DNA from: a virus
Virus record (IMG/VR): IMGVR_UViG_3300028585_000003
Location: 3,302-67,301 of that record
Length of the DNA stretch: 64,000 nucleotides
Reading direction: 5' to 3' (one strand)
Every line of letters starts with the position of its first letter. Position 1 is the first letter of the stretch. Below the pieces are notes generated by a model that saw only the letters and a list, made by a program, of their open reading frames with translations, did no database searches and was not told the DNA's origin. The position numbers and the translations under genes were made by a program. Positions 33,245-62,446 of this stretch are shown here, one piece after another.

Positions 33245-33287
33245 TAGGAAAACTCGGCCAGGGCGTCCAGGCGGCACCTTTTACAGT
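33245..33287 (+). promoter_or_regulatory. Candidate late promoter TAGGAAAA-N29-TACAGT
   Basis: Same geometry as four other sites ahead of virion operons. Confidence 0.6.
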
Positions 33288-33390
33288 GGCTTCACCAACG
33301 GCGGAACTCCGTGGGCACCGAGCGCAAAGCCGTGCAGAACATCGCACGGTAGGAAGGCGGATTTGCGCACCCTTCATGGTTATGGAGAAC

Positions 33391-33439
33391 TCGACAATAT
33401 TTTTTCTATTGTCGATTTCCCTTTAAAATCAACGGGTTA
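33391..33439. promoter_or_regulatory. Inverted repeat TCGACAATA-N7-TATTGTCGA and IHF consensus AATCAACGGGTTA next to dif-like site
   Basis: IR 33391-33415; WATCAANNNNTTR match 33427-33439. Confidence 0.5.
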
Positions 33440-33465
33440 GGTGCATAATCTATCTTATGTTAAAT
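33438..33465 (+). other. dif-like XerC/XerD recombination site
   Basis: TAGGTGCATAA-TCTATC-TTATGTTAAAT: XerD arm identical to canonical dif, XerC arm keeps GCATAA, 6-bp centre. Confidence 0.85.
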
Positions 33466-33486
33466 CACACATCGAAAGAATTCACA

Positions 33487-33723
33487 ATGTTGCAGCATCG
33501 CCCGACGTTTAGCAATGTCCTCGTTTTCTCCCTGGTATTCGCGGCACTACTCGCGGGCATGGGCGGCATCCTCCGTATGGAAGCCCTCGCCCTTCCGCAG
33601 TTCGCAGCAGGCATGTTTACCGGCGTATGGTCCCTGTGGGGCGCATCCCTGGCACTGGATATGTTCGCGTGCTGGCGCAAGCGCCGCGCCGAGTGCCGTG
33701 ACAACGCCTCATCCCTCGATTAA
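33487..33723 (+). CDS. Two-TM membrane protein (holin-like size)
   Basis: Two hydrophobic helices, basic C-terminus; ATG 33457 lies inside the XerD arm so 33487 preferred. Confidence 0.5.
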   Translation: MLQHRPTFSNVLVFSLVFAALLAGMGGILRMEALALPQFAAGMFTGVWSLWGASLALDMFACWRKRRAECRDNASSLD

Positions 33724-33738
33724 GAAAGAATCGACAAC

Positions 33739-34098
33739 ATGACTTACCGCATCGTCCACGCCATCGCATTCACCCTTATGTACCTCGCCATCATGGCGCT
33801 GTGCTCGTTCAAAGGCTGGACCTCGTTCGCTTCCGGCGCGACGGCGGCCATGCTCGCTTTCACCCTGGCCGATATTGCGGCCGCTGCCGTGCGCGAATGG
33901 CGCAATGGCCGTGCGGCGCGTCCCACCCGAGCGCAGGACGTGTGCATGCCTATGGATGAAGTCGAGCGCCGCCAGCGTGAAACGAATGGCTGGTGGTATT
34001 TCGTGATCCTGGTGTGCCTGTCCGGCTGGCTGTCCGTCGAGCTGCTGCGCATGGCCGTGCCCGCATTCGTTGACGCCATGGCGTCGCTGTTCTCGTAG
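33739..34098 (+). CDS. Three-TM membrane protein
   Basis: Three hydrophobic segments. Confidence 0.6.
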   Translation: MTYRIVHAIAFTLMYLAIMALCSFKGWTSFASGATAAMLAFTLADIAAAAVREWRNGRAARPTRAQDVCMPMDEVERRQRETNGWWYFVILVCLSGWLSVELLRMAVPAFVDAMASLFS

Positions 34099-34125
34099 TC
34101 CTACCTCAACCGAAAAGGAGTGTTT

Positions 34126-34419
34126 ATGGTCCGTCACCGTAGCCGAACGATGTTCCTCGCCGCCGCGCTGGCCTGCGCCGCCCTGAGCGCCAGCGTGGCC
34201 GCCAGCGCCACCGAATACCGGCCTGCCGCGAGCTGGAAAGCCCCCGCCGCCCAGGCCGCCCCGGTAATGCCTGCCCTGGTCGCGGAAGTGCCCGCCGTCG
34301 CCCTGGTGGCGGTCGTCGCGAGCATGGCCGTGGTGCCGGTGCCCGTCGGCCCGGTGGTCGCAGGTTCGAGCAATCCGATCCCCACCCAGCCGCGCGAGAA
34401 GCCGCGATTGTGGGCCTGA
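34126..34419 (+). CDS. Small exported/membrane Ala-Val-Pro-rich protein
   Basis: AAGGAG RBS; signal-peptide-like N-terminus. Confidence 0.55.
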   Translation: MVRHRSRTMFLAAALACAALSASVAASATEYRPAASWKAPAAQAAPVMPALVAEVPAVALVAVVASMAVVPVPVGPVVAGSSNPIPTQPREKPRLWA

Positions 34420-34449
34420 CCATGCGAAAGTAGAGAGAGCCCGAAAAGT

Positions 34450-34478
34450 AAAAAGCCCCGATGCGTTCGGGGCTTTTT
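34450..34478. terminator. Bidirectional intrinsic terminator
   Basis: A5-GCCCCG-loop-CGGGGC-T5 between convergent genes. Confidence 0.8.
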
Positions 34479-34480
34479 CG

Positions 34481-34849
34481 TTAGAACAGGGACATTTGCG
34501 GCGGTGATGCCGCTGGGGCTTGCGGAGCGGCCGCAGGCGGCGATTTCTCGGGCTTCGCGCCGGATTGGTAGCGCTCATGCAGTCGAAGCACCGTAGCGGC
34601 CATCCCGGCAATCCATGGGTCTTTCGGCAGGTGCATCCCGGTCGAGCCGTCCCAGTCGAAAAACTCCCGGTCGTAGAACGGCACGCGCTCCGGGTGCTGC
34701 TGCTGTAGTGTCACCAGCTCGTCGGCCCAGCGCTGCCAAGTGGCGTCGCTGACAATCGGGTTATCGAGCTGGTAGTACAGGTAGGAGTGGACGGCGAGCT
34801 GCTGGCGGCGCTGCCTGATACGCGCGGCGATACTCTGCGCGGCCGCCAT
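34481..34849 (-). CDS. Stand-alone NAD-dependent ligase domain Ia-like protein
   Basis: HSYLYYQLDNPIVSDATWQRW...QQHPE aligns with LigA [21 protein letters not shown]...TKHPE; no adenylation domain. Confidence 0.75.
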   Translation of the reverse strand: MAAAQSIAARIRQRRQQLAVHSYLYYQLDNPIVSDATWQRWADELVTLQQQHPERVPFYDREFFDWDGSTGMHLPKDPWIAGMAATVLRLHERYQSGAKPEKSPPAAAPQAPAASPPQMSLF

Positions 34850-35037
34850 CAGCCCACCCTTCCAGTGAAAACAACAGGGTTCGTCTCGCGCTCGGCCGCG
34901 TGCATCCAGAACAACTCATGTTCGAGGGCGTGGACGCGGTTCTTGAGCGTCGCGTTTTCCTTGGCGCTGGCGGCCAGCTCGCGCGCCAGCTCGACGGGCG
35001 TGCGGTACTTGAGCAGGTATTCGGCGAGCGTCATCAT
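34849..35037 (-). CDS. Small coiled-coil protein
   Basis: Overlap coupling. Confidence 0.5.
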   Translation of the reverse strand: MMTLAEYLLKYRTPVELARELAASAKENATLKNRVHALEHELFWMHAAERETNPVVFTGRVG

Positions 35038-35336
35038 TTCTGTGCCTCCGCCGCTTCCAGCTCGGCCAGCAGCTCGCGGCCCTTGCGTGTGATGTAGCGG
35101 CCGTCCAAATCTTGCGCGGCCAGCTCGCGCTTTTCCAGCGCGCGGGTGAACCGGCCAGCGGCAAGGGCGATGCCCTGCGGCGATGGGTGGCGCTTGCGCC
35201 CCTCTTTCTCTCCCGCGAACAAGGCATAGCCCAGGCCGGACAGGTAGGGGTAAGGGCCGTTGTCGCGCAGCAGCTCCAACGCCTTGCGTTCGTACTCGGA
35301 CAGGCTCTTGTCGGCCTGGAGTGATGCGTTACTCAT
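35034..35336 (-). CDS. Small wHTH-like protein
   Basis: FTRALEKRELA...YITRKGRELL. Confidence 0.5.
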   Translation of the reverse strand: MSNASLQADKSLSEYERKALELLRDNGPYPYLSGLGYALFAGEKEGRKRHPSPQGIALAAGRFTRALEKRELAAQDLDGRYITRKGRELLAELEAAEAQK

Positions 35337-35386
35337 GTGTCAGTTATCCGTCAATTTTTGTCAGTAAAATGTAAGTTTTCCGCAAG

Positions 35387-35860
35387 TTACCGGCAACGCG
35401 CGAGCGCTGGGTGGTCCGGGTCTACGCCGTTCGCCTCGGCCATCGCACGGTAACTGTCGTGCAGCTCATGCCCGCCGTCGGTGATCGAGTCGAAGTCCCG
35501 TTCGCCCTTGATGTAAAACGCCCGGCTCGCCCAGTTGTGATCTGCGCCTCGCATCAGGAACCCGGCGCACGTCGCGGGCTTCTCTTGGCCGGATTCGTGG
35601 CAGGCAAATTCGTGCTCGGACCCATCGTAGGCGGTGCGCGCCGACGCGACGAAAGCACCAGCAGGAAATGCGCCGGTCTGATCTACGCGCCAGGGGCACC
35701 CGCCGCACGGCTCGCGGCGATGCAGACTGCCGCCGCCCTCGACAGAAACAACTTGGTGGTTCGCGTCCACCGTTCGCACATTGGTGATGACCGCGCGCTT
35801 ACGCGGCTTCTTCGCTGTCTCGCACAGGACAGCCTTGCCTTGCTCATCCGATCTGCACAT
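35387..35860 (-). CDS. Cys/His-rich DUF6283-like protein
   Basis: PCGGCPWRVD...FACHES...CAGFL. Confidence 0.6.
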   Translation of the reverse strand: MCRSDEQGKAVLCETAKKPRKRAVITNVRTVDANHQVVSVEGGGSLHRREPCGGCPWRVDQTGAFPAGAFVASARTAYDGSEHEFACHESGQEKPATCAGFLMRGADHNWASRAFYIKGERDFDSITDGGHELHDSYRAMAEANGVDPDHPALARCR

Positions 35861-36336
35861 TATTCGCCTCGCGTGTCGAAGAACTCGACGTTCTTGTGGT
35901 TGCTGATCCCGTCCAGAACGCAGCGTGTGATGAAGTAGAAATTGCGGCCCCGGTCGTAAATGACTTCCTCGGTGTCCGTGCCGGAATTCAGGATCGTCTT
36001 GGCGCGCTGGGAGTACGGCTTGTCGCCGATGGTGAAGCGGAGCTTGTCGCCCGGCCATACCTGTCCTGCCTTGGTGACGGGTCGCCACTGGCCCACGTCG
36101 AGGAACTGCACCATAGTAGCGTGCGGCACGATCACGCTGCCGTCGGGCAGCTCGACCACGGCGCACAGGCCATGCACTACTTCGGTCGGCCCTTCGGTGC
36201 TGTCGGTGCCGAGCGCCAGCAGCATCCCGCGCGCGTGCAGCACCTCGCGCTCGTAAGTGTGAAGGCCGCCGCCCTCTTTCGGCGTGGCGACGATGTGAAA
36301 GACGCGCACCGGGCGCGGAAGCTGGCGCGGGGTCAT
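35860..36336 (-). CDS. Hypothetical protein
   Basis: TAATG overlap coupling. Confidence 0.55.
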   Translation of the reverse strand: MTPRQLPRPVRVFHIVATPKEGGGLHTYEREVLHARGMLLALGTDSTEGPTEVVHGLCAVVELPDGSVIVPHATMVQFLDVGQWRPVTKAGQVWPGDKLRFTIGDKPYSQRAKTILNSGTDTEEVIYDRGRNFYFITRCVLDGISNHKNVEFFDTRGE

Positions 36337-36650
36337 TGCGAATCCTGGCTGCGGCGAGCCCACCAGACGGCCGGGCCGCCCTCGGTGTCGTCAATGGCGA
36401 GCATGAACCAGCCTTCGCCATCTGGTGGCGCTGGGTTCCAGGTAGCAAAGCGGCCCGTTTCCTCGTATTCGGCGTGCGCCGGGCAGTCCTCATCCTCGGT
36501 GTCCAGAAAGCTGTAGAGCATTTTCAGCCCTTGTTGCTTGGCCCATTCGTGGTACTTGTGCGCCTCTCCCTCATCGAACTGGGGCATATCGGGGTGGTTC
36601 CATACGCCGTTGGCGTCGCGCTGCACAGTGGCGGCTTGAATCAGTTTCAT
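36333..36650 (-). CDS. Acidic hypothetical phage protein
   Basis: WNPAPPDGEGWFMLAIDDTEGGP. Confidence 0.6.
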   Translation of the reverse strand: MKLIQAATVQRDANGVWNHPDMPQFDEGEAHKYHEWAKQQGLKMLYSFLDTEDEDCPAHAEYEETGRFATWNPAPPDGEGWFMLAIDDTEGGPAVWWARRSQDSQ

Positions 36651-36659
36651 GCTGTGTCC

Positions 36660-37250
36660 TTATACGGGGATTTTCGGAGATTCTATGCGCAGCCAGTGGC
36701 CGCCGTACACGTCGCACATGATGGCTTGGCCGGTGTACGACTGGTTCATGGGCACGAAGCATTTTTTCGCCGTGCCGCTGTACAGCAGATCAAGTACGGT
36801 CGGGGCGCTGTCGGCGTCGCCGCTCCAATGCCAGTATTCGCCCTGTTCGGTCGGTGGCGTCGTCGTCCAGGCGTGCGCTGCGCGCGGCGCGCGAGGCGTG
36901 TACGGGCCGTAGGGGCGTCCGTGCTGGCGCGCCACCTCGGAAACCTTGGCGCGGTCGCGCTCCCAATAGATGACGTTGCCGCTGGCCGCCAGCACCGCCC
37001 AGGCTTCGCCCTCGAACGGCTCGGGCGGGATCGGCGTCACGCACTCCAGGTCGTAGCAGCCGCTCACGCCGTCGATCCAGACCACAGCGGTGTGGCCGCC
37101 CATGACTTGCGCCAGGCTGCGCGTGGTGGTGATGAAGGGCTTGTCTTTGCCGTCCAGCTTGACGGCAACGCGAGCGCCCGGCTCATAGTCGAAGTTGAAG
37201 GCATCGCACGCCGCTTGCAGCGCAGCCACGGATGGCGCTTTGTGGTTCAT
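36660..37250 (-). CDS. Mosaic hypothetical phage protein
   Basis: TTRSLAQVMGGHTAVVWIDGVSGCY domain plus PPTEQGEYW domain. Confidence 0.55.
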   Translation of the reverse strand: MNHKAPSVAALQAACDAFNFDYEPGARVAVKLDGKDKPFITTTRSLAQVMGGHTAVVWIDGVSGCYDLECVTPIPPEPFEGEAWAVLAASGNVIYWERDRAKVSEVARQHGRPYGPYTPRAPRAAHAWTTTPPTEQGEYWHWSGDADSAPTVLDLLYSGTAKKCFVPMNQSYTGQAIMCDVYGGHWLRIESPKIPV

Positions 37251-37810
37251 GGTGCTGGTTCCTCTTGTGGCCCTTTGGCCTCTTGGTGGTGGTCGAAATA
37301 TGCTTGCAGCCGGGTCAGGTCGGCGCGCATGCGCAGCAGGTCCGCGCGCCATACCAGCGCCATCTGGTCAGGGACCGGCGCGGGCTGTTGCAGGGCGCAC
37401 GCGGCGCGGATTCGTTCGTAGGATGCGGCCTTGGCCTCGGGGCCAGGGTTTGCGAACGGGGCCAGCCCTTCCGGCTTGGTGAACAGCGCGACGTGCTGCT
37501 TTCCCCGAGCGATCCACCCGTATTTGATGAGGTAGCTGCGGGTGTCGCAGTAAGCGCCGTTTGGGTGCCGGGCCAGTGGGATTTTGTCGGCGCGTACCGG
37601 GTCGCGCGCCCAGCGCTCGAACAGGTACGTTTCATCGCGCGGCACCTGGGCGGCCAGCGGCAGCTCGAACGTCATGGCCTGTTCGATCAGCAGCGCGCCG
37701 CTGTCAATGGTGCCGGTGATGGCGAACGGGTGGCCGGTGCCGAGGTCGGCGCGCACCTCGAAGCCTGCGCCCCGGAATGCGTCAATCACGTCTTGAACGA
37801 TGGTGGTCAT
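37247..37810 (-). CDS. Hypothetical protein
   Basis: 187-aa ORF, overlap coupling. Confidence 0.55.
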   Translation of the reverse strand: MTTIVQDVIDAFRGAGFEVRADLGTGHPFAITGTIDSGALLIEQAMTFELPLAAQVPRDETYLFERWARDPVRADKIPLARHPNGAYCDTRSYLIKYGWIARGKQHVALFTKPEGLAPFANPGPEAKAASYERIRAACALQQPAPVPDQMALVWRADLLRMRADLTRLQAYFDHHQEAKGPQEEPAP

Positions 37811-37854
37811 GGTGGTGCTTTGGTGGATGCGCCCGCCGTGGCGGGCATGGGTGA

Positions 37855-38082
37855 TTACTTATCGCGACGGAAGCGGCGGTGGGTGAACTGCGCAGCAATG
37901 CGGACCATCGTGCGCGCCAGATCAGGCGGCATGTGCTCGCCCAGGACGACGCGCTGCCATTTGATCGCGACATAGAGGCCGTGGCGATGCTGGCGAACGT
38001 CATACTTCTGGTCATGCTTTTGGCTCAGGCGCTTCATGGTTGCAAGGCGTTTCGCCTGGACCTTCTCTTGAGTCGCTTTCAT
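37855..38082 (-). CDS. Small basic protein
   Basis: GGAGA RBS; first gene after promoter 38161. Confidence 0.55.
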   Translation of the reverse strand: MKATQEKVQAKRLATMKRLSQKHDQKYDVRQHRHGLYVAIKWQRVVLGEHMPPDLARTMVRIAAQFTHRRFRRDK

Positions 38083-38131
38083 CGGATTCTCCGTTGTTCG
38101 CCGCGCCCACTGCGCCGCGCTAATGAATCGT

Positions 38132-38161
38132 ATTGTATGCGCTCATAAAGTGATCCGTCAA
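38132..38161 (-). promoter_or_regulatory. sigma70 promoter with TGAGCGCA spacer motif
   Basis: TTGACG-18-TACAAT. Confidence 0.75.
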
Positions 38162-38194
38162 TAGGTGCCGCGCACGCGGCGCGGCACCCTGTCC

Positions 38195-38773
38195 TTACGC
38201 CTTGGCGAAGTCGGGCGCAGGCAGCGCCGACGTTGCCGCGTACTTGCGGATCAGCACATAGGTCAGCACGATCCCGCCCACCAGCGCCAGCACGACCAGC
38301 ATCACCGCCAGCAGGATCAGGCTTGCCTTCGGGTCGTCGCTGTCGAACAGCTCGCTTACGCCCTTCCAGGCGTCACCGATGCCGTCGATTGCGCTGTACA
38401 TATTGTGGAGCTGGGCGAACGTGTTGTAACCGGCTACGCCCATGTTCAACAGGCTGCGCTCGCGGAATGCGACGATCCAGGAATGGACCGTGATGACAAG
38501 GCCGGTGCCCAGGGCGGGCACGATGATGAGCAGATACCAGAGCGACACGGCCGCCTTGGCGACGTGCGGCGGCAGGTAGCCGAACGTGTGTGCGATGAAG
38601 CCGACAGCGAAGCCCACGACGCTGGAGAAGCCGATTGCAGCCTGGATCGCGCCGGACCACGCCAGCAGCCGTGGGAAGCCGCCCAGTGCGCGCGCCTCGC
38701 GCCAGATACGGCCTACAGCCCAGCAGTTCGCCCAGCTAATCGCGAAGTTCAACAGGAGAATGAGGTAGAGCAT
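38195..38773 (-). CDS. Polytopic inner-membrane protein (about 4-5 TM)
   Basis: Multiple long hydrophobic helices. Confidence 0.7.
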   Translation of the reverse strand: MLYLILLLNFAISWANCWAVGRIWREARALGGFPRLLAWSGAIQAAIGFSSVVGFAVGFIAHTFGYLPPHVAKAAVSLWYLLIIVPALGTGLVITVHSWIVAFRERSLLNMGVAGYNTFAQLHNMYSAIDGIGDAWKGVSELFDSDDPKASLILLAVMLVVLALVGGIVLTYVLIRKYAATSALPAPDFAKA

Positions 38774-38820
38774 TTATTGCCTTTATATAAATGCCGCGCG
38801 GATCGGGGCGCGGCTACCCG

Positions 38821-39210
38821 TTAAATCTTTCGGTAAAGCAGCTTCATCAGCGGGTCGGCCTTGAGGCGGTGGCCCTGCCCTTTCCGGCGTCTGTACTTCG
38901 CGCCGGACTTGCGCATATCGGCCAGATAGTCCTCATACAGCCCGGCGTCCTTCAAGCCCTGCCGGTATCTCGCTGCTAGTTGGGCTTGTGTCCAGGGTTT
39001 CGGGCGGCGCGCATCCCGGCCAGGGCCGCGCACGTACACGGCCACATAGTCCCTGCCGTTGCGATTCCATTGGCCCACGCGCAGCTCTCCCGCCTTGCGC
39101 AGCCGGGTGATCCACTTGTGAAGCGTTGAGGTCGAGCGAATGTCGAGCTGGGCCAGCAGCTCGCGCGACGTGGCGGGCACCAGCTCCAGGATGCGCTCGC
39201 CGGTTGTCAC
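38821..39210 (-). CDS. wHTH DNA-binding-like protein
   Basis: TSRELLAQLDIRSTSTLHKWITRLRKAGELRV; GTG start at overlap. Confidence 0.5.
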   Translation of the reverse strand: MTTGERILELVPATSRELLAQLDIRSTSTLHKWITRLRKAGELRVGQWNRNGRDYVAVYVRGPGRDARRPKPWTQAQLAARYRQGLKDAGLYEDYLADMRKSGAKYRRRKGQGHRLKADPLMKLLYRKI

Positions 39211-39599
39211 GGCAGGCAGTACGGCGAGCCGCCGCAGTTCATGTGGTCGTAGCGGTCGAATTCTTCGGCCAACCCGTACCATTGCCGCTCGCTTTCGCAG
39301 TGGCGACAGGTGTACGTCAGGGTTCCGTCGGGGTCGCGATACAGGCCGTCGGGCAGCTCGTCGTCTTCATCGTCCTGGTCGCGCATCCATTCCGCGTGTT
39401 CGGCCGGATTGCAGTGCTCGCATGGCTGGCGCGCGGTGGTCGGGTCGTGGCCGTCGGCGTCCATATCGCTCATGTAGCCGTCGGTACACATCAGGTCGGG
39501 ATAGCTGGTGGTGCCGCTGTAGCCCTGCCGGAAGCAGCCATCAGGGATTGGCACCGAGCGGACGTGTCGGCGGTACTGGCGGCGCTGGTAGGCGTTCAA
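39207..39599 (-). CDS. Acidic Cys-rich small protein
   Basis: CEHC, CRHC, CGGSPYCLP; DQDDEDDE tract. Confidence 0.6.
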   Translation of the reverse strand: MNAYQRRQYRRHVRSVPIPDGCFRQGYSGTTSYPDLMCTDGYMSDMDADGHDPTTARQPCEHCNPAEHAEWMRDQDDEDDELPDGLYRDPDGTLTYTCRHCESERQWYGLAEEFDRYDHMNCGGSPYCLP

Positions 39600-40003: not shown

Positions 40004-40098
40004 TTGCGCTTATTGGCCCAGCAGATGCCGAGGGTGATGATGACGATTGCGGCGATGTAGGCGAGGTCAATGACCTCTTTTCCGGTCAGTTGCGGCAT
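40000..40098 (-). CDS. 32-aa single-TM peptide
   Basis: LAYIAAIVIITLGICW plus basic tail; AGGAGA RBS; not in ORF track. Confidence 0.45.
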   Translation of the reverse strand: MPQLTGKEVIDLAYIAAIVIITLGICWANKRK

Positions 40099-40217: not shown

Positions 40218-40230
40218 GGGTTCCTTGAGG

Positions 40231-40479: not shown

Positions 40480-40513
40480 TGCAGTTCCTATATTTCTACT
40501 GGTAAATATAGGT

Positions 40514-40542: not shown

Positions 40543-40564
40543 TAGTGAAGCCTATAAATGGGCG

Positions 40565-40607
40565 TAGGAAAAGCCCGAAAAATGGCTTTGTGACCGGCCA
40601 GTAACAT
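40565..40607 (+). promoter_or_regulatory. Candidate late promoter TAGGAAAA-N29-TAACAT
   Basis: Immediately upstream of baseplate operon. Confidence 0.65.
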
Positions 40608-40613
40608 CGCGGA

Positions 40614-40907
40614 ATGGACAAAATTAACGCTACCGACTTGCAGGGCATGGTGACGCACTGGGTTTCGACGCCGCCGAATGGCTACCTCGGCAGCGGCTAC
40701 GGTGCGGATACGCTCGCGATGCTGCAAAACCCGATGAAAACCGGCATTGCCGATGGCTACCTGAAAAAACTGCGCGCCGACGTGCCCTTGGTGGGCGCGT
40801 TGCCGCCTGCGGCCGTCAATATCTACGCGCAGGACACTTCCCCGGACAAGCGGGAAATCTTCATCGACGTATCCGGCCAGATGGTCGCCCTTGGGAGTAA
40901 CACGTAA
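40614..40907 (+). CDS. Baseplate wedge protein (gp25/gpW-like, P1 gp26-like)
   Basis: HWVSTPPNGYLGSGYG; precedes baseplate J-like gene. Confidence 0.6.
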   Translation: MDKINATDLQGMVTHWVSTPPNGYLGSGYGADTLAMLQNPMKTGIADGYLKKLRADVPLVGALPPAAVNIYAQDTSPDKREIFIDVSGQMVALGSNT

Positions 40908-45869: not shown

Positions 45870-45912
45870 TAGGAAAACGACGGGATAGCCTGCCCAGGGC
45901 GCGCCTCAAAAT
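45870..45912 (+). promoter_or_regulatory. Candidate late promoter TAGGAAAA-N29-CAAAAT
   Basis: Upstream of second tail fibre gene. Confidence 0.6.
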
Positions 45913-45936
45913 AGGGCCACCTATTTTGAGGCCCAT

Positions 45937-52303: not shown

Positions 52304-52346
52304 TAGGAAAACTCGACGGAAAGCCCTCTTTCGCGCACCCGAGAAT
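52304..52346 (+). promoter_or_regulatory. Candidate late promoter TAGGAAAA-N29-GAGAAT
   Basis: Upstream of operon leading to Dar-like cluster. Confidence 0.6.
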
Positions 52347-52379
52347 GGTGGGATTCACCTCATCAATAAGGAGCGCAAC

Positions 52380-56500: not shown

Positions 56501-57437
56501 TTTGGCCGACCTGGAGCAGCAGGTTGCCGCCGCCGAAGCTGCTGCTGGCACGCGCGACCCCGAGCCGCAGCCGAGCCCACAGCCAGACCCGCAGCCGGAC
56601 CCGGACCCACAGCCTGAGCCGCAACCGGACCCGCAGCCAGCGCCAGCGGCCGACCCTGAGTCGGAAACCTATCGCGAATACCTGATCTACCCTACCCGCG
56701 TGGGCGGCAATATTATGTTCGCGGTGCAGTCGGACGAGAATAAAGCCCTCGCCGCAGCCGGTGAGCGCACCATTGGCGGCGACACGCTGCACGCCACCAT
56801 TGAGCAGGCCCGCGCCGAGGTGGACCGCCTCATCATCAAGGCCGAGGCCGATGCGAAGTCAAACGCCGAATGGGAAGCGCGCCGCGCCGAAGAAGAAGCG
56901 AAGGCCGCCGCTATCCGCGCCGAGTTCGAGGACGTGGACGGCTTCGCCGACGGCTTGAGCCCGATGCAGAAGGAAAAAGTGCTGCAAGCGCTGAATACCG
57001 TCGTCCGCTACAAGGGGGAAGTTGTCACCCGAAAAGCGATTGTCCGCGCCAAGGTCGCCGAGGGCTGGAGCATGGGTGCCGACAAAGAAATGGGCCGCGT
57101 CTTGGAGCAAGCCGACGCAGTGCTGGGCACGAAGCAGCTCACGAAAACTGGCCTGGATTACGCCGCCTACCTCATTTCCAAGCGCCCGGCACCAGAGCCG
57201 CTCGATCTGGACGAGGCGACGACCACCACGGACGACGAGGAAGCCGCCGACGGCGATTTCCTGGCGCTGGCCGCAGAGGGCAAGGTGGACTTCTATGACA
57301 AGGCCGTGACCGACCGTCTCGCCGCCCTGGCGCGCAAGTACACCGACCCGGAAGGCGCTTACCTCGATATGATCGAGCGCGCCAAGACCGCCGCGAAGAA
57401 CTGGTTCATCGCTGAATTCAAAAAGCGGGTGGGCTGA
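53586..57437 (+). CDS. darA: Polyvalent fusion: LamG-like domain, 20-aa repeats, Ig-like, PPase-like domain, DarA N-terminal domain, PQPD linker, helical C-domain
   Basis: VCGWDGSAYFLYVNG (LamG); IENPANSVR-YGYLVGTLGNDGDELD (polyvalent PPase-like); ELTDGQTVSVFFHNPD-SWKWMLNKKDIT (DarA_N); internal RBS+ATG at 55893. Confidence 0.65.
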   Translation: MAVMRSQPQGLALLNRSYLGRCVGAIFTATSKEIGGSGAEVALYGNPAATVVPGHGLARKLIAASSQYATIAPPADLIDFSLETPFAIVFAFTAASLGTTARLYSYRHAANNTGVQLVLGGASSRLGFCLGNSSGQAPQVNSREAIEAGKPYVVVCGWDGSAYFLYVNGSKQAGSSIGTIVTTNPSIGTEIYIGRRNTGTSYLDGSVSLFAHIKGQVDALSLSLNPWQIFDEQGSEDEMYAALAAVETPPMALVGAPSTQGSTSGSGAIIQRHALAGASSMQGASSPGAAVVQAHALMGAATTQGSTSPGAAIIQGHALAGAPSWQGSSSGTGTISEEHVAAGAPSFQSSTSPGGAITQAHQLAGAPTTQASTSPGGALETLRPADESVGVGAPTDQPSWSSGGGIVQAHVLAGAATTQGSTSPGAAARQTHVLAGAPSWQSSSSGAGAMVEQHVAMGAPSFQSSTSGKGAILQWHRLQGAGTTQGSTSPGGAMSQTIGGVPQAVIGIRITPSAVDLDGLNTVMFEADVEVTGGVSQAVVWSALYGKIQPDGFYTAPRAIGRDQFDVITARSAADKSKSVSVTVRIKAGLFNSWGVRERTKQELETMIWPELSDPTEAQAASGNYRKDRFSLYGLRIAIENPANSVRYWRDKNGTKGSQTMTFAYGYLVGTLGNDGDELDCTIGPAPLTSEVAYVVNQFIDGKFDEHKIMLGFASQSEAEAGYLSNYERGWKGLHSCQPCSITQLKWWIANSNKSRPLTNDLLPYEGNAMNKVLWDSADKPRNLTLDQVLYAIRGSDAADGLLFDAVSMADVLGDADAVLTLDALVVPFSRIEQRMGIMRKVLDRTGKAVKVAAMQVSDPFTQRGTTNVAVIYELTDGQTVSVFFHNPDVTPKKILPGDDLVSWKWMLNKKDITIAVAPEKGRDLEPRIVAARIMLLAEKNSERFAKANTKRAERMDTIASLQTELDTKKATLADLEQQVAAAEAAAGTRDPEPQPSPQPDPQPDPDPQPEPQPDPQPAPAADPESETYREYLIYPTRVGGNIMFAVQSDENKALAAAGERTIGGDTLHATIEQARAEVDRLIIKAEADAKSNAEWEARRAEEEAKAAAIRAEFEDVDGFADGLSPMQKEKVLQALNTVVRYKGEVVTRKAIVRAKVAEGWSMGADKEMGRVLEQADAVLGTKQLTKTGLDYAAYLISKRPAPEPLDLDEATTTTDDEEAADGDFLALAAEGKVDFYDKAVTDRLAALARKYTDPEGAYLDMIERAKTAAKNWFIAEFKKRVG
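54340..55070 (+). repeat. About 11 tandem 20-aa repeats HxLxGAxxxQxSTSPGxAIxQ
   Basis: Seen in translation and as recurring AGCACCAGCCC at DNA level. Confidence 0.8.
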
Positions 57438-59326
57438 TGGATCAAGGGCAGCAAGAATACTTCGCCATCATCGGCGAAGGCGCGGCCCTGATGGGAAGCC
57501 TGGACGAGCAGTCGTCCGGGTTTTTCGATGGTCTGAACCGCCTGCGCGAAATCCTGGCGATGCTGGGCTATGCGTCCGCTGTCGGCCCGCTGAAATTCTC
57601 GCTCGCCGACAAGGCGGGCTCGCTGGAGGCGCTGTCGGGATACCTGAACAATGGCATCAATGTGCTGCCTGACGAGCTGGCGCTGTATGAGCTGATGACG
57701 GTGAGCGAGCTGACCCAGCTTGCTGGCGGCAGCACCAGCACGCTTGCCGAAGTAATTTGGGAGCGCCACAACGCGCTGAGCCAAAAAACGTCCAGTGATG
57801 GCGCGAAGGTGGCCGCATTCAACGCGCTGGCCGGGCGTGGGATCAAGCATGGCGTCGAGCAGTCCGACCTGGAGCAAATGATGGCCGACGCTGCCGCGCA
57901 TCTGGCAAAGAAGCCCGAGGACAGCGCGGAGTATGTCGAGGCGCGCGAAGCCTACCAGCGCATTTCTCGCGAACGGACGCAGGCGCTTGATGCGCTGGCA
58001 ACGTTGATCCGCGAGAACAGCGCCGAGGGGCTGGACGTAACCGAGCTGCTGGCAAAGCGTCTGGACCTGATGACCCGTACCGGCGACGAGCAGACCGCCG
58101 CGTGGCAGCGTTACAGCGACCTGCACGACGAATACAACCGCGACCGAGTGGATGGGCACAAGGCCATCTTCGAGGCGCGCGGGACTGCGATCCTCGCCAA
58201 GCTGGCCGAGGCGTCGCCGATCACGACCGAACAGGCGAATGCCTGGGCAAATGAGCAAGTCATCGACGCCAACGCCAAGGCCAAGCTGCGCAAGCTCGGC
58301 TACAAGCCGGAAGACGTGGTGCGCGATATGGCCGAGTTCTACCGCCTGACAGGCGGCAAGGCGTCGGCAATTCGCATCGGCATTGACGGCGGCAAGCGGG
58401 CGAACGCCGTGGGCATTACGGAGCGCCTGGGCGAAAAGGTCATCAACCTGGGCTCGCGCTTTACCAAGGTGACGCTGTTCCATGAGCTGGCGCACCACCT
58501 GGAGAACGATCCGATTGCCAAGGCGGCCGCGAACGGCTTCCTGTTAAAGCGCCGCGAGGACGACAGCGTGTACCGCCTGCGCGACCTGACCGGCAACAAG
58601 GGCTATGACGCCAGCGAGGTGGCCTACAAGGATCACTTCATGGATGCCTACGTCGGCAAGATTTACCCGAACGGCATTACTGAGGTCTGGTCCATGGGCG
58701 TGCAGTACCTCGCAAACCCGAAAGACGCGGCCATTCTGGCGGCGAAAGACCCGGAAATGCTCAACCTCATCACCGGCTACCTGAGCATGACCACCCCCCC
58801 TGCGATGCACGCCAAGCTCAACATGCACAAGAGCGCCATTGGTGAAATGCAGGAAAAGCGCCAGAGCGAAGAAACCCAGTACGAACGCGCCGTTGCATAT
58901 CTGGCGGCCCAGGCAGTGCTCACTAAAGACAACTGGTTTGCAGAGCTGGATCGGGGCAGCGAGATTTACAGGGTGCTCGACAGGCGGGCGCTTTCAAAAG
59001 CAAAAAAGGGGAATCCGGTTTATGTCGGGTCGCACGGAAAATTCCGTGTTTTCTCCGGGACGTATCGCAACCGCACTACGAGCCGGAACGCAAAAGGCTA
59101 CATGATTGTCGATGGTATTGACGATGCAGCGTGGAGCTTTAACAGCGACGACATATCGGCCGAGATTGTCCACGGCGACATCGAAAAGGTGCAGGCCGTA
59201 ATGGCGCTTGCGAAGCGCGATGGCACCGGACTATTCCTTGCAATCTGGAACTATTTCAGCAGCAGTACGGTGCGCGATCCGAAGAAAAACCTGATCGAAA
59301 CCGTCGGCGCGGAGAACCTACAATGA
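57437..59326 (+). CDS. Polyvalent protein with zincin-like metallopeptidase domain
   Basis: TLFHELAHHLE and downstream TEVWSMG. Confidence 0.7.
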   Translation: MDQGQQEYFAIIGEGAALMGSLDEQSSGFFDGLNRLREILAMLGYASAVGPLKFSLADKAGSLEALSGYLNNGINVLPDELALYELMTVSELTQLAGGSTSTLAEVIWERHNALSQKTSSDGAKVAAFNALAGRGIKHGVEQSDLEQMMADAAAHLAKKPEDSAEYVEAREAYQRISRERTQALDALATLIRENSAEGLDVTELLAKRLDLMTRTGDEQTAAWQRYSDLHDEYNRDRVDGHKAIFEARGTAILAKLAEASPITTEQANAWANEQVIDANAKAKLRKLGYKPEDVVRDMAEFYRLTGGKASAIRIGIDGGKRANAVGITERLGEKVINLGSRFTKVTLFHELAHHLENDPIAKAAANGFLLKRREDDSVYRLRDLTGNKGYDASEVAYKDHFMDAYVGKIYPNGITEVWSMGVQYLANPKDAAILAAKDPEMLNLITGYLSMTTPPAMHAKLNMHKSAIGEMQEKRQSEETQYERAVAYLAAQAVLTKDNWFAELDRGSEIYRVLDRRALSKAKKGNPVYVGSHGKFRVFSGTYRNRTTSRNAKGYMIVDGIDDAAWSFNSDDISAEIVHGDIEKVQAVMALAKRDGTGLFLAIWNYFSSSTVRDPKKNLIETVGAENLQ

Positions 59327-59964
59327 CCACGATTTATAAAGCCATGACGCCCTACGGGGCGTTTCAAGCCGAATGGGGCGAGGACGAAGATAGCCGCGTC
59401 GAATACACCGGCAGCGCCGATGCGATTGCATTTTTCCGGGACTTCCTGGAGCTGACGCCCATTTCGGGCATTGGCGGCGCGCGCATCCAGTTCGACACCC
59501 TGGAGCCAGCTGAGCTGTACGGCTTTTGCCAGTCCGAACAGTATGGAATTTCCGTTCTCCCCAGCGAGGACGACTTGATGGACGAAATGGAACGAAACGA
59601 AATGGAAATGACCCTGCTGGATGCCGTAGGCTCGGCCGAATCGTTTGAGCTGATCGGCGAGAGCGCGCAGATTTTCGGACGGCTGAGCGAGAGTGCCGAT
59701 ACCTTCTTCTCTGACCTGGACCGCCTGCGCGTCATCATGCAGGAGCTGGGCGGCGACGTGGCCGACCCAAGCGCCGAGGCGCGCGCCTACCTGCAAGCCG
59801 TGATCGACGGCCCTGGCCTGACCGCACCGATGCTGGCCGACGAGCTGGGGAAAATCCACGCGGCGCACGGTTCCGACGCCGGTATGCTCGCCCTGTTCAA
59901 ATCGGCCGTCACCGCGTATGCGCAGCACGCCATCGCGCAGGCGAACGAAGCACTCAAGGGATAA
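59323..59964 (+). CDS. Dar-cluster protein with shared helical modules
   Basis: Shares ELIGE-FFSDLDRLRVIMQELG with 57437 ORF and C-domain with 53586/59966 ORFs. Confidence 0.6.
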   Translation: MTTIYKAMTPYGAFQAEWGEDEDSRVEYTGSADAIAFFRDFLELTPISGIGGARIQFDTLEPAELYGFCQSEQYGISVLPSEDDLMDEMERNEMEMTLLDAVGSAESFELIGESAQIFGRLSESADTFFSDLDRLRVIMQELGGDVADPSAEARAYLQAVIDGPGLTAPMLADELGKIHAAHGSDAGMLALFKSAVTAYAQHAIAQANEALKG

Positions 59965-59965
59965 C

Positions 59966-62395
59966 ATGGAAGACACCAACACCGCGCCCGGCTCCTGGCT
60001 GGGCCACAGGCTCATCAACAAGGCCGCCGCCGAGGAACTGGGCGCATCCGTCCTGCCGTCCGATAAAGCCCTGGCGGGCCGCGTATGGCTCGCCCTGAGC
60101 GATGCCGACGGCGATCCGCTGTTCGTCGCCGGTATCGTCGTGGGCGTCAAATTCACCGCCGCCGCCGTCCTCTACTCGCTGGCCTTCCCGGTCGCGCCGC
60201 AGCCGCGCGAGGGCGAAACCATGTATGCGGTCGTGGATGATATCGCGTCCGGCCTGGTGCTGGCCGAGCTGCCCGACAGCGAAACCGTGTTCGATGCTGT
60301 GATGACCGAGGATGCGGCCGTGCTGATCCCGCGCGAGCCGCTGGTGGCGACCCCGGAACCGGCCGTGGTGCTGGATTCGGTGCTGGACCTGGGCCGCCTA
60401 CAGGGCGAGCTGACCGAGCGCGTCAGCACCCTGGAAAGCGCCCTGGCGACGGATGCCGACCCGATGTACACCCTGGGCGTGATCGGCGAAGTGGTAAGCC
60501 TGACCGCGCAGGTGCGGGCCGGTGTGCCTGCGCCAGTGGTCGAGGTGGACCCGACGGAGTGGCCGGGCTATGCCGAGGTGCTGCGCGACGAAGCCAAGGC
60601 GATCAAGTGGCAAGACCGTCTCGATTCGTTCTTCGGTGAGCGTGTCGTCGCCCTGCGCAAAGCCCTGCGCGCGCTGGGCTGGGAAGGCGAGCAATGGGGC
60701 GCGCTGACCAAGGCGGGCATCATCGCGCGCTTCGATTTCTGGCAAGTCGGCGCGGGGAAGAACGTCGTCGGCATGACCGTCAACGGCATTCAGGACGATC
60801 TGACCAAGAACGTGGACGAGCTGGCCGCCGCCATCGACGCCACCGCCGCCCTGCCCGTCGCGCCGGAAGCCCCGCACGCGAATGTCGCGCTGACCGGCGA
60901 CGAGCTGGGCCAGTTCGAGGACACGCCGGAAGGCGCGAAGGCGCTGCGCGAAGCGGCAAAGGCACACTTTACGGCCATGCTGGGCCAGTGGGTGCCCTGC
61001 CCTGCCCTGGGCAGCGACGTGGAGCTGCGCAAGAGCGGCATGAAGAAGGTATTGAGCCTGAGCGGCGACAAGCGCAAGCTCAAGCTGATCCCGGCCATCA
61101 AGCAGATGATCGGCGCGGCCGTGAAAGTGTCGCAGCAACAGACCTACGCGCCCGAGCGCGAGCAGAACATCGTGGCGTACCACCTCCTGCGCGCTACTGC
61201 CTCCCTGGCCGGGGAATCGCTGGCCGTGCGCTTCATCGTCAAGCAGGACGACAAGGGCGCGTTTCACTGGGATCACACGGTCCATGCGGCCGATGCCGTA
61301 TTCGATTCGGTGGCCGAAAAAGGAAAAGGGCCGGACGAATCCGACCCTTCCCCTACAGCTTCTTCCGACGGCAGGGCTGTACAGACTTCGCAGTCTATCG
61401 GAGCTACCCGCTTAGTGAGCTGCCTACTTGATTCGATTGTAGGCGAATCGGGCGAAGTGTTCAACCTGTTCATCGAAGGCGAAGCGCCTGAAGTCATCGC
61501 CGACGAGCCCGCCGCCCCATCCGAGCAGTTCAATACCTACCGCGCCTGGATCGAAAAAGAGCTGGCCGAAGGCAAGACCATCCCGACTGGAACGATGGAA
61601 GTCATTCGCATGGATACCCGCCTGGAAGATGGCGAAGCAGAGCAGCTCGCCGCTCTCGCTACCCAGGCACCCGCACCGCAGGAGAAGCAAAGCATGGAGC
61701 AACTCATCAAGATCGCAGCCGACTCGCTGGCGCAGCTGCGCCGGATCGACGTGTGGCGCGTCCTCAATTCCGCAGGCGAGCAGCGCGCCGAGCTGGCAAC
61801 CTTCATCGCCACCGGCCGCGCCGACCTGGTGCGCGAAGTCACCGACGTGATGGCCGAGGAATGGCCGGGCCTGGGCTGGTCGTTCGGTGCATCGGTCGAG
61901 CCTACCCCCGTCCCGAGCGGCAATGCCGAGCTGGAAGCGGCCGGGTTCAAGAATGTCAGCGGCAACGAATGGGCCAAAGGCGTGCAGCGCGAGAGCGGCA
62001 AGCTGAACCTCAACATTCGCGTGTTTGGCACCCCGGAGCAGTTCAAGCTGAAAAAGTCAGCATCGTTCACTGGCGGCATTAGCGGTTCGCCATCGCAGGA
62101 AGTCGGCACGTACACCTCTGCTGCGGACGCCGTTGCTGCCGCCCAGGCCGAGGCCGACGCGTTCCTGTCGCAAGCCGAGCCCGGCGAAACGAGCGAGCAG
62201 GAGCGCAATCCGGCGCGCGTGGGCGATATGGCGTTCCTGAACGGCGTCATTACGCACGGCGTCGATATGTGGGACGGCGGGCTGGCCGACAAGATCGAGG
62301 GCATGGCCGCCACCTACGAAAGCGACGCGGAAGTGATGGAGCTGGTGGGTCGCGCGATCAACTCCTACACCGATTTCATGCTGGCCGCAGCGTAA
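59966..62395 (+). CDS. Polyvalent protein with DarA_C-like and LPD3-like domains
   Basis: WQDRLDSFFGERVVALRKALRALGW; VELRKSGMKK-YHLL-VRFIVKQDDKG; AAGGGA RBS before ATG 59966. Confidence 0.55.
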   Translation: MEDTNTAPGSWLGHRLINKAAAEELGASVLPSDKALAGRVWLALSDADGDPLFVAGIVVGVKFTAAAVLYSLAFPVAPQPREGETMYAVVDDIASGLVLAELPDSETVFDAVMTEDAAVLIPREPLVATPEPAVVLDSVLDLGRLQGELTERVSTLESALATDADPMYTLGVIGEVVSLTAQVRAGVPAPVVEVDPTEWPGYAEVLRDEAKAIKWQDRLDSFFGERVVALRKALRALGWEGEQWGALTKAGIIARFDFWQVGAGKNVVGMTVNGIQDDLTKNVDELAAAIDATAALPVAPEAPHANVALTGDELGQFEDTPEGAKALREAAKAHFTAMLGQWVPCPALGSDVELRKSGMKKVLSLSGDKRKLKLIPAIKQMIGAAVKVSQQQTYAPEREQNIVAYHLLRATASLAGESLAVRFIVKQDDKGAFHWDHTVHAADAVFDSVAEKGKGPDESDPSPTASSDGRAVQTSQSIGATRLVSCLLDSIVGESGEVFNLFIEGEAPEVIADEPAAPSEQFNTYRAWIEKELAEGKTIPTGTMEVIRMDTRLEDGEAEQLAALATQAPAPQEKQSMEQLIKIAADSLAQLRRIDVWRVLNSAGEQRAELATFIATGRADLVREVTDVMAEEWPGLGWSFGASVEPTPVPSGNAELEAAGFKNVSGNEWAKGVQRESGKLNLNIRVFGTPEQFKLKKSASFTGGISGSPSQEVGTYTSAADAVAAAQAEADAFLSQAEPGETSEQERNPARVGDMAFLNGVITHGVDMWDGGLADKIEGMAATYESDAEVMELVGRAINSYTDFMLAAA

Positions 62396-62403
62396 GCGAC
62401 AGC

Positions 62404-62446
62404 TAGGAAAAGCCCCGGTTTTCGGGGAGTGGACGGGCAGCAAACT
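62404..62446 (+). promoter_or_regulatory. Candidate late promoter TAGGAAAA-N29-CAAACT
   Basis: Upstream of darB-like gene. Confidence 0.55.

What the first reader, a model, noticed from the sequence alone, without database searches (positions are those of the whole stretch)
33245..62446. Five late promoters share an exact TAGGAAAA-N29-(-10) geometry
Seen: TAGGAAAA at 33245, 40565, 45870, 52304 and 62404, each intergenic, each with a -10-like hexamer starting exactly 37 nt after the first T (TACAGT, TAACAT, CAAAAT, GAGAAT, CAAACT) and no conserved -35. Four sit directly before virion operons (baseplate, fibre, Dar cluster, darB). Known: P1 late promoters use Lpa and a different element near -22. 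Inference: a distinct late activator binds around -47 to -40; candidates in the window are the HTH genes at 19805 and 20616.
Basis: partly seen in the sequence, partly recalled or inferred. Interest (0 to 1): 0.72.

Follow-up and report, generated by a model that had tools for sequence, protein, structure and literature searches.

The report
Conserved two-part phage late promoter
A P1-like temperate phage starts all its virion and lysis operons from one unusual promoter type, a GGAAAA box exactly 29 bases before a weak -10 element with no -35. Relatives and their satellite elements keep this signal, which points to an undescribed phage late-gene activator.

Summary
TAGGAAAA occurs 5 times in the window (0.32 expected) and 7 times in the 91-kb phage genome. 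Every copy is on the + strand and outside coding sequence. Each is followed after exactly 29 nt by an nAnAnT hexamer.

The conserved core is GGAAAA. With three variant boxes, 10 sites head the baseplate, fibre, Dar, DarB, portal, tube, capsid/sheath, head-morphogenesis and lysis operons; an eleventh match lies inside a gene. Close relatives keep box, spacing and hexamer while the spacer diverges. Xanthomonas phage Rb1 uses CGGAAAA-N29, and Acinetobacter phage ABMM1 uses TGGAAC at nearly the same distance.

Start codons lying exactly 6 nt after the hexamer (leaderless genes) place the transcription start 7 nt downstream, so the hexamer is a -10 and the box sits at -47 to -42. There is no P1 Lpa homologue and no P1 -22 element.

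The best activator candidate is the XRE-type gene at 20616-21317. It sits in the lambda-Q position, is conserved wherever the promoter is, and is copied in three satellite-like islands behind the same promoter. The gene at 19805 has no support.

Earlier notes of this scan describe the same promoter class on other DNA. No transcript data could be obtained.

The parts
33245..33294 (+). Late promoter 1. Box TAGGAAAA at 33245-33252, 29-nt spacer, -10-like TACAGT at 33282-33287, predicted start about 33294. It drives a conserved leader upstream of small membrane-protein genes.
   Evidence: Orthologous sites in three relatives keep box, N29 and hexamer.
40565..40614 (+). Late promoter 2. Box at 40565-40572, hexamer TAACAT at 40602-40607. 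The predicted start, 40614, is the A of the ATG of the first baseplate-operon gene, so the mRNA is leaderless.
   Evidence: Orthologues in two relatives and Rb1 keep exactly 6 nt between hexamer and ATG although the sequence between differs.
45870..45919 (+). Late promoter 3, before the tail-fibre operon. Box at 45870-45877, hexamer CAAAAT at 45907-45912, predicted start 45919.
   Evidence: Conserved in relatives.
52304..52353 (+). Late promoter 4, before the Dar-like internal head protein operon. Box at 52304-52311, hexamer GAGAAT at 52341-52346.
   Evidence: A relative's site has GACAAT at N29 (L018).
62404..62453 (+). Late promoter 5, before the DarB-like methyltransferase/helicase gene. 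Box at 62404-62411, hexamer CAAACT at 62441-62446.
   Evidence: Conserved in relatives.
45903..45932 (+). 13-bp hairpin that holds the -10 hexamer in its 5' arm and the GAGG ribosome-binding site of the fibre gene in its 3' arm. The predicted start (45919) is the last loop base.
   Evidence: -22.2 kcal/mol, z -3.7. Two relatives form a hairpin at the same place with different sequence (z -5.8 each).
62432..62470 (+). Terminator-like hairpin plus T run that encloses the -10 hexamer of promoter 5. The predicted start lies in its loop or 3' arm.
   Evidence: z -3.4 to -3.75. The sequence is nearly identical in relatives.
20616..21317 (+). Candidate late activator: a 233-aa protein with a 434-repressor-like XRE helix-turn-helix (about residues 30-95) and a long helical hairpin (101-212). 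It follows the NinB and Holliday-junction-resolvase genes and precedes the terminase genes.
   Evidence: plus satellite copies behind the same promoter.
40614..40907 (+). First gene of the baseplate operon (97 aa, phrog_4683), read as leaderless.
   Evidence: The ATG is the seventh base after the hexamer.

Best explanation
These sites are the late promoters of a temperate phage with a P1-type virion. Each has two conserved parts at a fixed distance: a GGAAAA box (TAGGAAAA in most copies) and, 29 nt downstream, a weak -10 element (nAnaaT). Nothing resembles a -35.

Proposed mechanism, with the status of each step:
1. Shown by sequence and comparison: the bipartite element, its fixed geometry, and its restriction to the heads of virion and lysis operons. 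The start site is shown only indirectly, by leaderless genes.
2. Inferred: the host sigma-70 holoenzyme reads the -10 through A-11 and T-7.
3. Inferred: a phage-encoded DNA-binding protein bound at about -47 to -42 supplies the contact that the missing -35 would normally give. In about a quarter of the sites it may also use a weaker GGAAA-like repeat one helical turn downstream. This would keep the operons silent until the protein is made.
4. Inferred: that protein is most likely the XRE-type dimer encoded at 20616-21317, in the position that Q holds in lambdoid phages. I put this assignment at about 50%.

At two promoters a hairpin encloses the -10, so transcripts started there lack the 5' arm. 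This frees a ribosome-binding site (fibre gene) or escapes a terminator (darB). This point is inferred.

The confidence given (0.7) is for activator-dependent late promoters read by a phage factor, not for the identity of that factor.
For: Statistics:
- 5 exact boxes in the window against 0.32 expected.
- 7 in the genome, all forward.
- 11 GGAAAA-N29-NANNNT sites on the + strand, against 1 on the - strand and 0.48 in shuffles, with a sharp peak at spacing 29.

Conservation:
- Two relatives have 5 co-oriented sites each, with diverged spacers.
- A third has 14 forward and 0 reverse; a fragment of a distant relative has 8.
- Rb1 has 10 sites of the form CGGAAAA-N29-CAnnAT before its late operons.
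- ABMM1 has 14 GGAAC sites with a matching hexamer (NANANT) at one fixed spacing.
- Over 25 sites, only GGAAAA (-47 to -42) and A-11, A-9 and T-7 carry information.

Start site: an ATG lies exactly 6 nt after the hexamer at window 40614 and its orthologues, at the PmgG-like gene (genome 87207) and its orthologues including a satellite copy, and at Rb1 genes 65072 and 51801 as annotated in GenBank.

Gene context: the sites precede baseplate, fibre, Dar, DarB, portal, tube, capsid/sheath, PmgG-like and holin/endolysin/spanin genes. The leftward blocks instead use strong -35/-10 promoters carrying TGAGCGCA.

Factor:
- No Lpa homologue, and no family typical of a sigma factor, Q, Ogr or Mor/C hit any of the 30 early-region proteins scanned against Pfam.
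- The 20616 gene is one of few non-structural genes shared with Rb1. It has the same NinB / resolvase / HTH / terminase synteny in Rb1, ABMM1 and another relative.
- Its recognition helix is invariant in 26 homologues, differs in Rb1, and differs most in ABMM1, whose box also differs.
- Three integrase- or primase-bearing islands each carry a homologue in an operon headed by a GGAAAA-N29 site.
- Homodimer model: score 0.51 against a best control of 0.00. That mark was reached by 20 of 30 proteins solved as pairs of one chain and by 1 of 23 solved as single chains. Runs agree in at least 42% of contacts and partner pLDDT is at least 68. This supports pairing but does not show it.
Against: - No transcript, footprint or reporter data exist.
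- The box is a single asymmetric 6-8-mer. No inverted partner is found at any fixed offset, and only 9 of 33 sites have a second GGAAA-like copy 10-12 bp downstream. The predicted dimer of the 20616 protein is two-fold symmetric, which would normally read a palindrome.
- The fold search matched only the DNA-binding domain, to repressors of the 434/P22 type, so the protein could be a repressor or play another role.
- In this genome no box precedes the terminase genes or the 20616 gene itself.
- The AAAA of the box coincides with the position of the proximal UP-element A-tract, so part of the signal could be read by the RNA polymerase alpha subunit rather than by a phage protein.
Confidence: 0.7

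Rival explanations
1. The promoters are as described, but GGAAAA is read by a different factor than the 20616 protein. This could be another small phage protein (for example an RNA-polymerase-binding protein analogous to Lpa) or a host protein.
For: The box is asymmetric, whereas the 20616 protein is predicted to be a symmetric dimer. Many small early proteins have no family assignment. A 116-aa protein at 23920-24270 is also shared with Rb1. P1's own activator has no recognisable relatives here, which shows that such factors can be unrecognisable by sequence.
Against: No other regulator-like gene was found shared across this phage, Rb1 and ABMM1. The three satellite-like islands copy the 20616 homologue specifically, behind the same promoter. 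A host factor is unlikely because the box variant follows phage lineage across hosts of different orders.
Confidence: 0.2
2. There is no dedicated activator. The A-tract of the box acts as a proximal UP-like element for the RNA polymerase alpha C-terminal domain, and together with the -10 it gives weak constitutive promoters. Late expression would then follow from genome copy number or relief of repression.
For: AAAA lies at -45 to -42, next to the AAAA at -44 to -41 of the published UP-element consensus (established knowledge of rrnB P1-type UP elements; position). Spacing to the -10 is rigid, as expected for a proximal alpha site.
Against: The two G's are as invariant as the A's (25/25 and 24/25), and TA precedes them in this clade. 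UP elements are AT-rich and do not need GG. ABMM1 uses TGGAAC, which is not an A-tract. No distal AT-rich subsite is conserved. The class is confined to virion and lysis operons, while other operons have full -35/-10 promoters.
Confidence: 0.08
3. The box is the -35 element of an alternative (ECF-like) sigma factor, phage or host, rather than an activator site.
For: GGAAC/GGAAA resembles the GGAAC -35 motif typical of ECF sigma promoters (established knowledge). ABMM1's box is TGGAAC.
Against: The distance from box to hexamer is 29 nt, against 16-19 nt in all known sigma-70-family promoters. Nothing is conserved 16-19 nt after the box. No sigma domain was found in the early-region proteins scanned.
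Confidence: 0.03
4. The motif acts in RNA, as a processing, antitermination or translational signal, or is the T-tract end of leftward terminators, and not as a promoter.
For: Several spacers can form GC-rich hairpins directly after the box. Read on the other strand, these look like a hairpin followed by TTTTCC (sequence inspection).
Against: Spacer sequence and hairpin potential are not conserved between orthologous sites, whereas the distance to the hexamer is. Leaderless ATGs 6 nt after the hexamer leave the box outside the transcript. Neighbouring genes at most sites are all rightward, so leftward terminators would have no use. No Rfam family matched.
Confidence: 0.02

Closest known systems
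Phage P1 late promoters with the activator Lpa (gp10) and host SspA
   Same: A virion of the same type (baseplate 24% and capsid 22% identical). About ten dispersed late promoters head the morphogenesis, Dar, packaging and lysis operons. Both have a weak TAnnnT/CAnnAT -10, no -35, and depend on a phage factor (P1: PMC8198154; GenBank features).
   Different: P1's element is the 9-mer AAGT(G/T)ACTT, 4 nt upstream of the -10. Here the element is GGAAAA, 29 nt upstream, and nothing is conserved around -22. No Lpa homologue is present.
Phage P2 Ogr / satellite P4 Delta late promoters
   Same: Several dispersed activator-dependent late promoters with an upstream site. Satellites carry their own copy of the activator and the same promoter type, allowing mutual trans-activation. 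The islands follow this logic.
   Different: Ogr and Delta are small zinc-finger proteins that read the dyad TGT-N12-ACA near -55 (established knowledge). Here the site is an asymmetric GGAAAA at -47 to -42 and the candidate is an XRE helix-turn-helix protein.
Lambda CII-dependent promoters (PRE, PI, PaQ)
   Same: Promoters with a poor -35 are activated by an oligomeric helix-turn-helix protein that reads short direct repeats one helical turn apart in the -35 region (established knowledge). Here 9 of 33 sites have a second GGAAA-like copy 10-12 bp downstream.
   Different: The CII repeats (TTGC-N6-TTGC) straddle -35 and both are needed. Here one strong box lies a turn further upstream and the second copy is usually absent. 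The function is late lytic expression, not lysogeny.
Phage Mu middle and late promoters with Mor and C
   Same: A -10 without a usable -35, with an activator site between about -30 and -55 at a fixed distance.
   Different: Mor and C read dyad-symmetric sites and belong to another protein family. No dyad is present here, and no Mor/C family hit appeared among the proteins scanned.
UP element (alpha-CTD proximal subsite)
   Same: An A-tract at nearly the same position relative to the -10.
   Different: The GG (and TA) are invariant, the flanks are not AT-rich, and one lineage uses a GGAAC variant.

Membership tests
P1 Lpa-type late promoter | 9-bp element AAGT(G/T)ACTT ending 4 nt upstream of the -10 (the '-22 region') | tested here: not met
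   Seven annotated P1 late promoters were extracted. In 25 sites of this class no position between -41 and -13 carries more than about 0.6 bit.
P1 Lpa-type late promoter | Genome encodes an Lpa (gp10) homologue | tested here: not met
   tblastn and phmmer --max of P1 Lpa against the whole genome and all called proteins gave a best E-value of 0.44.
P1 Lpa-type late promoter | -10 hexamer without a -35, heading morphogenesis and lysis operons | tested here: met
P1 Lpa-type late promoter | Requires host SspA | not testable with these tools
   Needs host genetics.
Canonical sigma-70 promoter | -10 with A-11 and T-7 | tested here: met
   25 of 25 sites.
Canonical sigma-70 promoter | -35 hexamer 16-18 nt upstream of the -10 | tested here: not met
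   No information at -37 to -30. The consensus scan finds none of the five sites.
P2 Ogr / P4 Delta late promoter | Dyad TGT-N12-ACA centred near -55 and a zinc-finger activator | tested here: not met
   No conserved position upstream of -49 and no inverted partner. No Ogr/Delta family hit among the proteins scanned, though not all proteins were scanned.
Lambda CII-type activation | Two direct repeats one helical turn apart, read by an oligomeric HTH protein | tested here: inconclusive
   A second GGAAA-like copy at +10 to +12 occurs in 9 of 33 sites, with almost none at other spacer offsets. The candidate is predicted to pair.
ECF-sigma promoter | GGAAC-like -35 with a 16-17 nt spacer to the -10 | tested here: not met
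   Spacing is 29 nt, with a sharp peak.
UP element | AT-rich region from -59 to -38 with a proximal A-tract | tested here: inconclusive
   The A-tract position fits, but the flanks are GC-rich and GG is invariant.
Lambda Q-type antitermination | One late promoter, a Q-family protein, and read-through of terminators | tested here: not met
   Ten dispersed promoters. No Q family hit for the protein in the Q position, which is an XRE HTH.

The most novel reading that the evidence does not exclude
A large, unstudied group of phages and phage-plasmids with P1-type virions, in Burkholderiales, Xanthomonas, Acinetobacter, Rhodocyclaceae and Methylococcaceae, shares a late-transcription switch of its own. 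In this reading, an XRE-type dimer in the lambda-Q position reads a single asymmetric GGAA box at -45 and recruits RNA polymerase to -35-less promoters. Small integrative satellites carry their own copy of this protein, plus PmgG-like, terminase-like or Dar-like genes, behind the same promoter so as to plug into the helper's late programme. At some promoters, hairpins that enclose the -10 make translation or terminator escape depend on which promoter made the RNA.
Probability: 0.4. Interest if true: 0.7.

Novelty: new variant of a known kind. Interest (0 to 1): 0.55.

Why it matters
Activator-dependent late promoters are a classic theme (P1, P2/P4, Mu, T4), but this signal and its geometry are not described in the papers I could search, including those on the two cultured relatives.

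- The signal gives a simple rule (GGAAAA-N29-nAnaaT) for annotating late operons and leaderless genes in a widespread, uncharacterised phage and phage-plasmid group.
- It names one testable candidate regulator.
- It links that group to candidate satellites that appear to use the same switch.
- Two cultured phages, Rb1 and ABMM1, make the prediction directly testable.

Tried and rejected
- Megablast of 20 kb of the window against named phages found nothing; relatives were found only at the protein level.
- Rfam and tRNA scans of the window found nothing.
- Whole-genome k-mer enrichment was dominated by codon bias. For example, CTACAAGG (17 copies) is almost all coding Tyr-Lys, so it was dropped.
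- The 61-aa ORF directly upstream of the small terminase gene (21314-21499) was tested as a zinc-finger Lpa analogue, by analogy with Rb1's annotation. It is a membrane peptide.
- P1 Lpa searches were negative.
- A search for an inverted partner of the box found nothing at any fixed offset.
- The Foldseek PDB search matched only the HTH domain of the candidate.
- An Atlas look-up of the 116-aa protein at 23920-24270 was uninformative.
- Two attempts to read the P1 genome paper by DOI and PMC id failed. P1 promoter sequences were taken from the GenBank features instead.
- An early information-content table was wrong for Rb1 because of a 2-nt offset and was redone.


Full report
**Observation**

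TAGGAAAA occurs five times in the window, at the stated coordinates. All copies are on the + strand, against 0.32 expected (0 of 100 shuffles reach five). The hexamers that begin 37 nt after the first T are TACAGT, TAACAT, CAAAAT, GAGAAT and CAAACT.

The window is bases 3302-67301 of a 91,370-bp, 63% GC virus record with short terminal repeats. The whole genome has seven exact copies, all forward. All lie between genes or on a stop codon, and each has an nAnAnT hexamer after exactly 29 nt.

**The core is GGAAAA and the regulon is larger**

- 44 GGAAAA lie on the + strand. Eleven of them have A at hexamer position 2 and T at position 6 after 29 nt.
- The comparison figures are 1 on the - strand and 0.48 in composition-preserving shuffles. 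The spacing histogram peaks sharply at 29.
- Three further intergenic sites join the seven exact copies: GTGGAAAA before the portal gene, TTGGAAAA before a PmgG-like gene, and CAGGAAAA before the holin/endolysin/spanin genes. A fourth match lies inside a gene and is doubtful.
- The ten sites together head the baseplate, tail fibre, Dar-like head proteins, DarB-like protein, portal, tail tube, capsid/sheath, head morphogenesis and lysis operons. The tenth is the site at 33245, which precedes a conserved leader and small membrane proteins.
- The leftward gene blocks between these operons use a different promoter type: a good -35, the element TGAGCGCA, and a good -10.

**Comparative evidence**

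The phage is a distant relative of P1. Its baseplate protein is 24% identical to BplA and its capsid protein 22% identical to gp23. The closest named phages are Xanthomonas phage Rb1 (38-54%) and Acinetobacter phage ABMM1 (23-49%).

| Genome | Sites found |
|---|---|
| Two IMG/VR relatives (72-79% baseplate identity) | 5 co-oriented TAGGAAAA each; orthologous sites keep N29 and the hexamer while the spacer is largely rewritten |
| A third complete relative | 14 forward, 0 reverse |
| A fragment of a relative with 41% capsid identity | 8 |
| A 56%-identity relative; Rhodocyclaceae and Methylococcaceae MAG contigs | box before the capsid gene (spacing 28 in the Rhodocyclaceae contig) |
| Rb1 | no TAGGAAAA, but ten (C)GGAAAA-N29-CAnnAT sites before its late operons |
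| ABMM1 | TGGAAC, with 14 sites at one fixed spacing; the GG-to-hexamer distance is one base shorter |

Over 25 sites from three genomes, only GGAAAA and hexamer positions 2, 4 and 6 carry information. Nothing is conserved in the spacer.

**The hexamer is a -10 and the start is 7 nt downstream**

The sequence nevertheless gives an internal test.

- At 40565, the ATG of the first baseplate-operon gene (40614) is the seventh base after the hexamer. Two relatives and Rb1 keep exactly 6 nt there, with different bases.
- The same holds for the PmgG-like gene (genome 87207) in three relatives and in a satellite copy.
- It also holds for Rb1's internal head protein gene, as annotated in GenBank.
- None of these genes has room for a ribosome-binding site. 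They read as leaderless mRNAs that begin at the A of the AUG.

This fixes the hexamer at -12 to -7 and the box core at -47 to -42 (TAGGAAAA at -49 to -42). The invariance of A-11 and T-7 fits recognition by a sigma-70-type factor, on established knowledge of -10 recognition.

**Hairpins that enclose the -10**

At 45870, a 13-bp hairpin (45903-45932) holds the hexamer in its 5' arm and the GAGG ribosome-binding site of the fibre gene in its 3' arm. Two relatives form a hairpin at the same place with different sequence (z scores -3.7, -5.8 and -5.8). At 62404, a terminator-like hairpin with a T run encloses the hexamer.

In both cases the predicted start lies in the loop or the 3' arm. RNA made from these promoters would therefore lack the 5' arm, whereas read-through RNA from upstream would fold. 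I infer that this insulates the operons from each other. It is not shown.

**The trans-acting factor**

P1 Lpa has no homologue here. P1's 9-mer, 4 nt upstream of the -10, is absent. No family typical of a sigma factor, Q, Ogr or Mor/C hit any of the 30 early-region proteins scanned against Pfam.

The gene at 20616-21317 is the best candidate. The evidence for it:

- It encodes a 233-aa protein with a 434-repressor-like helix-turn-helix and a long helical hairpin.
- It follows the NinB and Holliday-junction-resolvase genes and precedes the terminase genes. That is the place of Q in lambdoid phages, and the same order is seen in Rb1, ABMM1 and another relative.
- It is one of very few non-structural genes shared with Rb1, and it is present in every sufficiently complete genome that has the promoter.
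- Its recognition helix is invariant in 26 homologues down to 36% identity. The helix is altered in Rb1 and in a low-GC relative, and is most different in ABMM1, whose box also differs.

A further, independent line comes from three small islands, in Pseudoduganella, Cupriavidus and Paraburkholderia chromosomes. Each has an integrase or a primase/helicase gene. Each carries a homologue of this protein, and each also has a PmgG-like gene. They differ in the other phage-derived genes they carry: a terminase-N-like gene in the Pseudoduganella island, a transglycosylase in the Cupriavidus island, and DarA-like genes in the Paraburkholderia island. In each island, a GGAAAA-N29-hexamer site heads the operon that contains the homologue. 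This mirrors satellite P4, which carries Delta, a homologue of its helper P2's late activator Ogr.

A homodimer model passed its controls. The score was 0.51 against a best control of 0.00. That mark was reached by 20 of 30 proteins solved as pairs of one chain and by 1 of 23 solved as single chains. The runs agree in at least 42% of contacts, and partner pLDDT is at least 68. The model supports pairing but does not show it.

The evidence against the assignment:

- The box is asymmetric, with no inverted partner.
- Only 9 of 33 sites show a second GGAAA-like copy 10-12 bp downstream.
- The protein's solved look-alikes are repressors.

I therefore put the assignment at about one half.

**Rival explanations**

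- An alpha-subunit UP-like reading fits the position of the A-tract. It does not explain the invariant GG, the GC-rich flanks or the GGAAC variant.
- An ECF-type -35 is excluded by the 29-nt spacing.
- An RNA-level signal, or leftward terminators, is contradicted by the unconserved spacers, the leaderless starts and the gene orientation.
- Chance is excluded.

**Comparison and novelty**

The class works like other activator-dependent late promoters: P1/Lpa, P2/Ogr, Mu/C, and, for direct repeats near -35, lambda CII. It fails the defining features of each of these; see the membership table.

Searches of the held literature for the motif, and the papers on Rb1 and ABMM1, say nothing about it. 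Earlier AI notes of this scan describe the same class on other genomes: Paraburkholderia, Nitrosomonas and Psychrobacter phages, and an XRE protein in the Q position. They agree with what I derived here, but they are not independent evidence.

I rate this a new variant of a known kind. The promoter signal is solid; the activator is inferred.

Noticed in passing
window 27347, 32081, 33183, 38138 and 52266 (leftward); genome 73143 (rightward, outside the window): Six intergenic promoters share a TTGACG-type -35, the element TGAGCGCA and a TAnAAT -10. They head the leftward accessory-gene blocks and one rightward gene. This is probably a repressor-controlled early or lysogenic regulon. Two of them sit back to back with late promoters 1 and 4. 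Another note of this scan (e1-5359802) describes them.
   Followed up: partly
L070 (CP183987.1 1002090-1022839, Pseudoduganella), L075 (Cupriavidus, CAJZAF010000001.1), L076 (Paraburkholderia, NPIH01000045.1): Three compact islands each have an integrase or primase/helicase gene, a homologue of the 20616 regulator and a PmgG-like head-morphogenesis gene (55-66% identical to this phage's), and each has at least one GGAAAA-N29 late promoter. The Pseudoduganella island also has a terminase-N-like gene, the Cupriavidus island a transglycosylase, and the Paraburkholderia island DarA-like genes. They look like satellites of this phage group.
   Followed up: partly
window 33288-33450: Late promoter 1 is followed by a conserved roughly 130-nt non-coding stretch (the core caccaacggcggaactc is kept in four genomes). 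A hairpin follows, and then a conserved sigma-70-like promoter (TTTAAA-16-CATAAT, 33422-33449) before small membrane-protein genes. The stretch may be a late leader or a small RNA.
   Followed up: partly
window 15474-15524: Three TGGGAAAA copies at 21-22 bp intervals lie in the gap upstream of a lambda-P-like replication gene (15918-16772). They look like iterons of a replication origin and are unrelated to the late promoters: none has a hexamer at N29.
   Followed up: no
L007, about 60-80 nt after the box upstream of the capsid gene (genome about 82640-82660): The long 5' leader of the capsid gene contains a short hairpin (gcggggttccgc) that is kept in relatives down to 56% capsid identity. 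Its role is unknown.
   Followed up: no
window 21314-21499: A 61-aa hydrophobic ORF lies between the candidate activator gene and the small terminase gene. It is absent at that place in a relative (L072).
   Followed up: no
Rb1 record, position 690 (L021): Rb1 has a GGGGAAAA-N29-GATAAT site immediately upstream of its own homologue of the candidate activator. The hexamer overlaps the annotated start codon. This could mean auto-activation with a start codon further downstream, or it could be a chance match.
   Followed up: no
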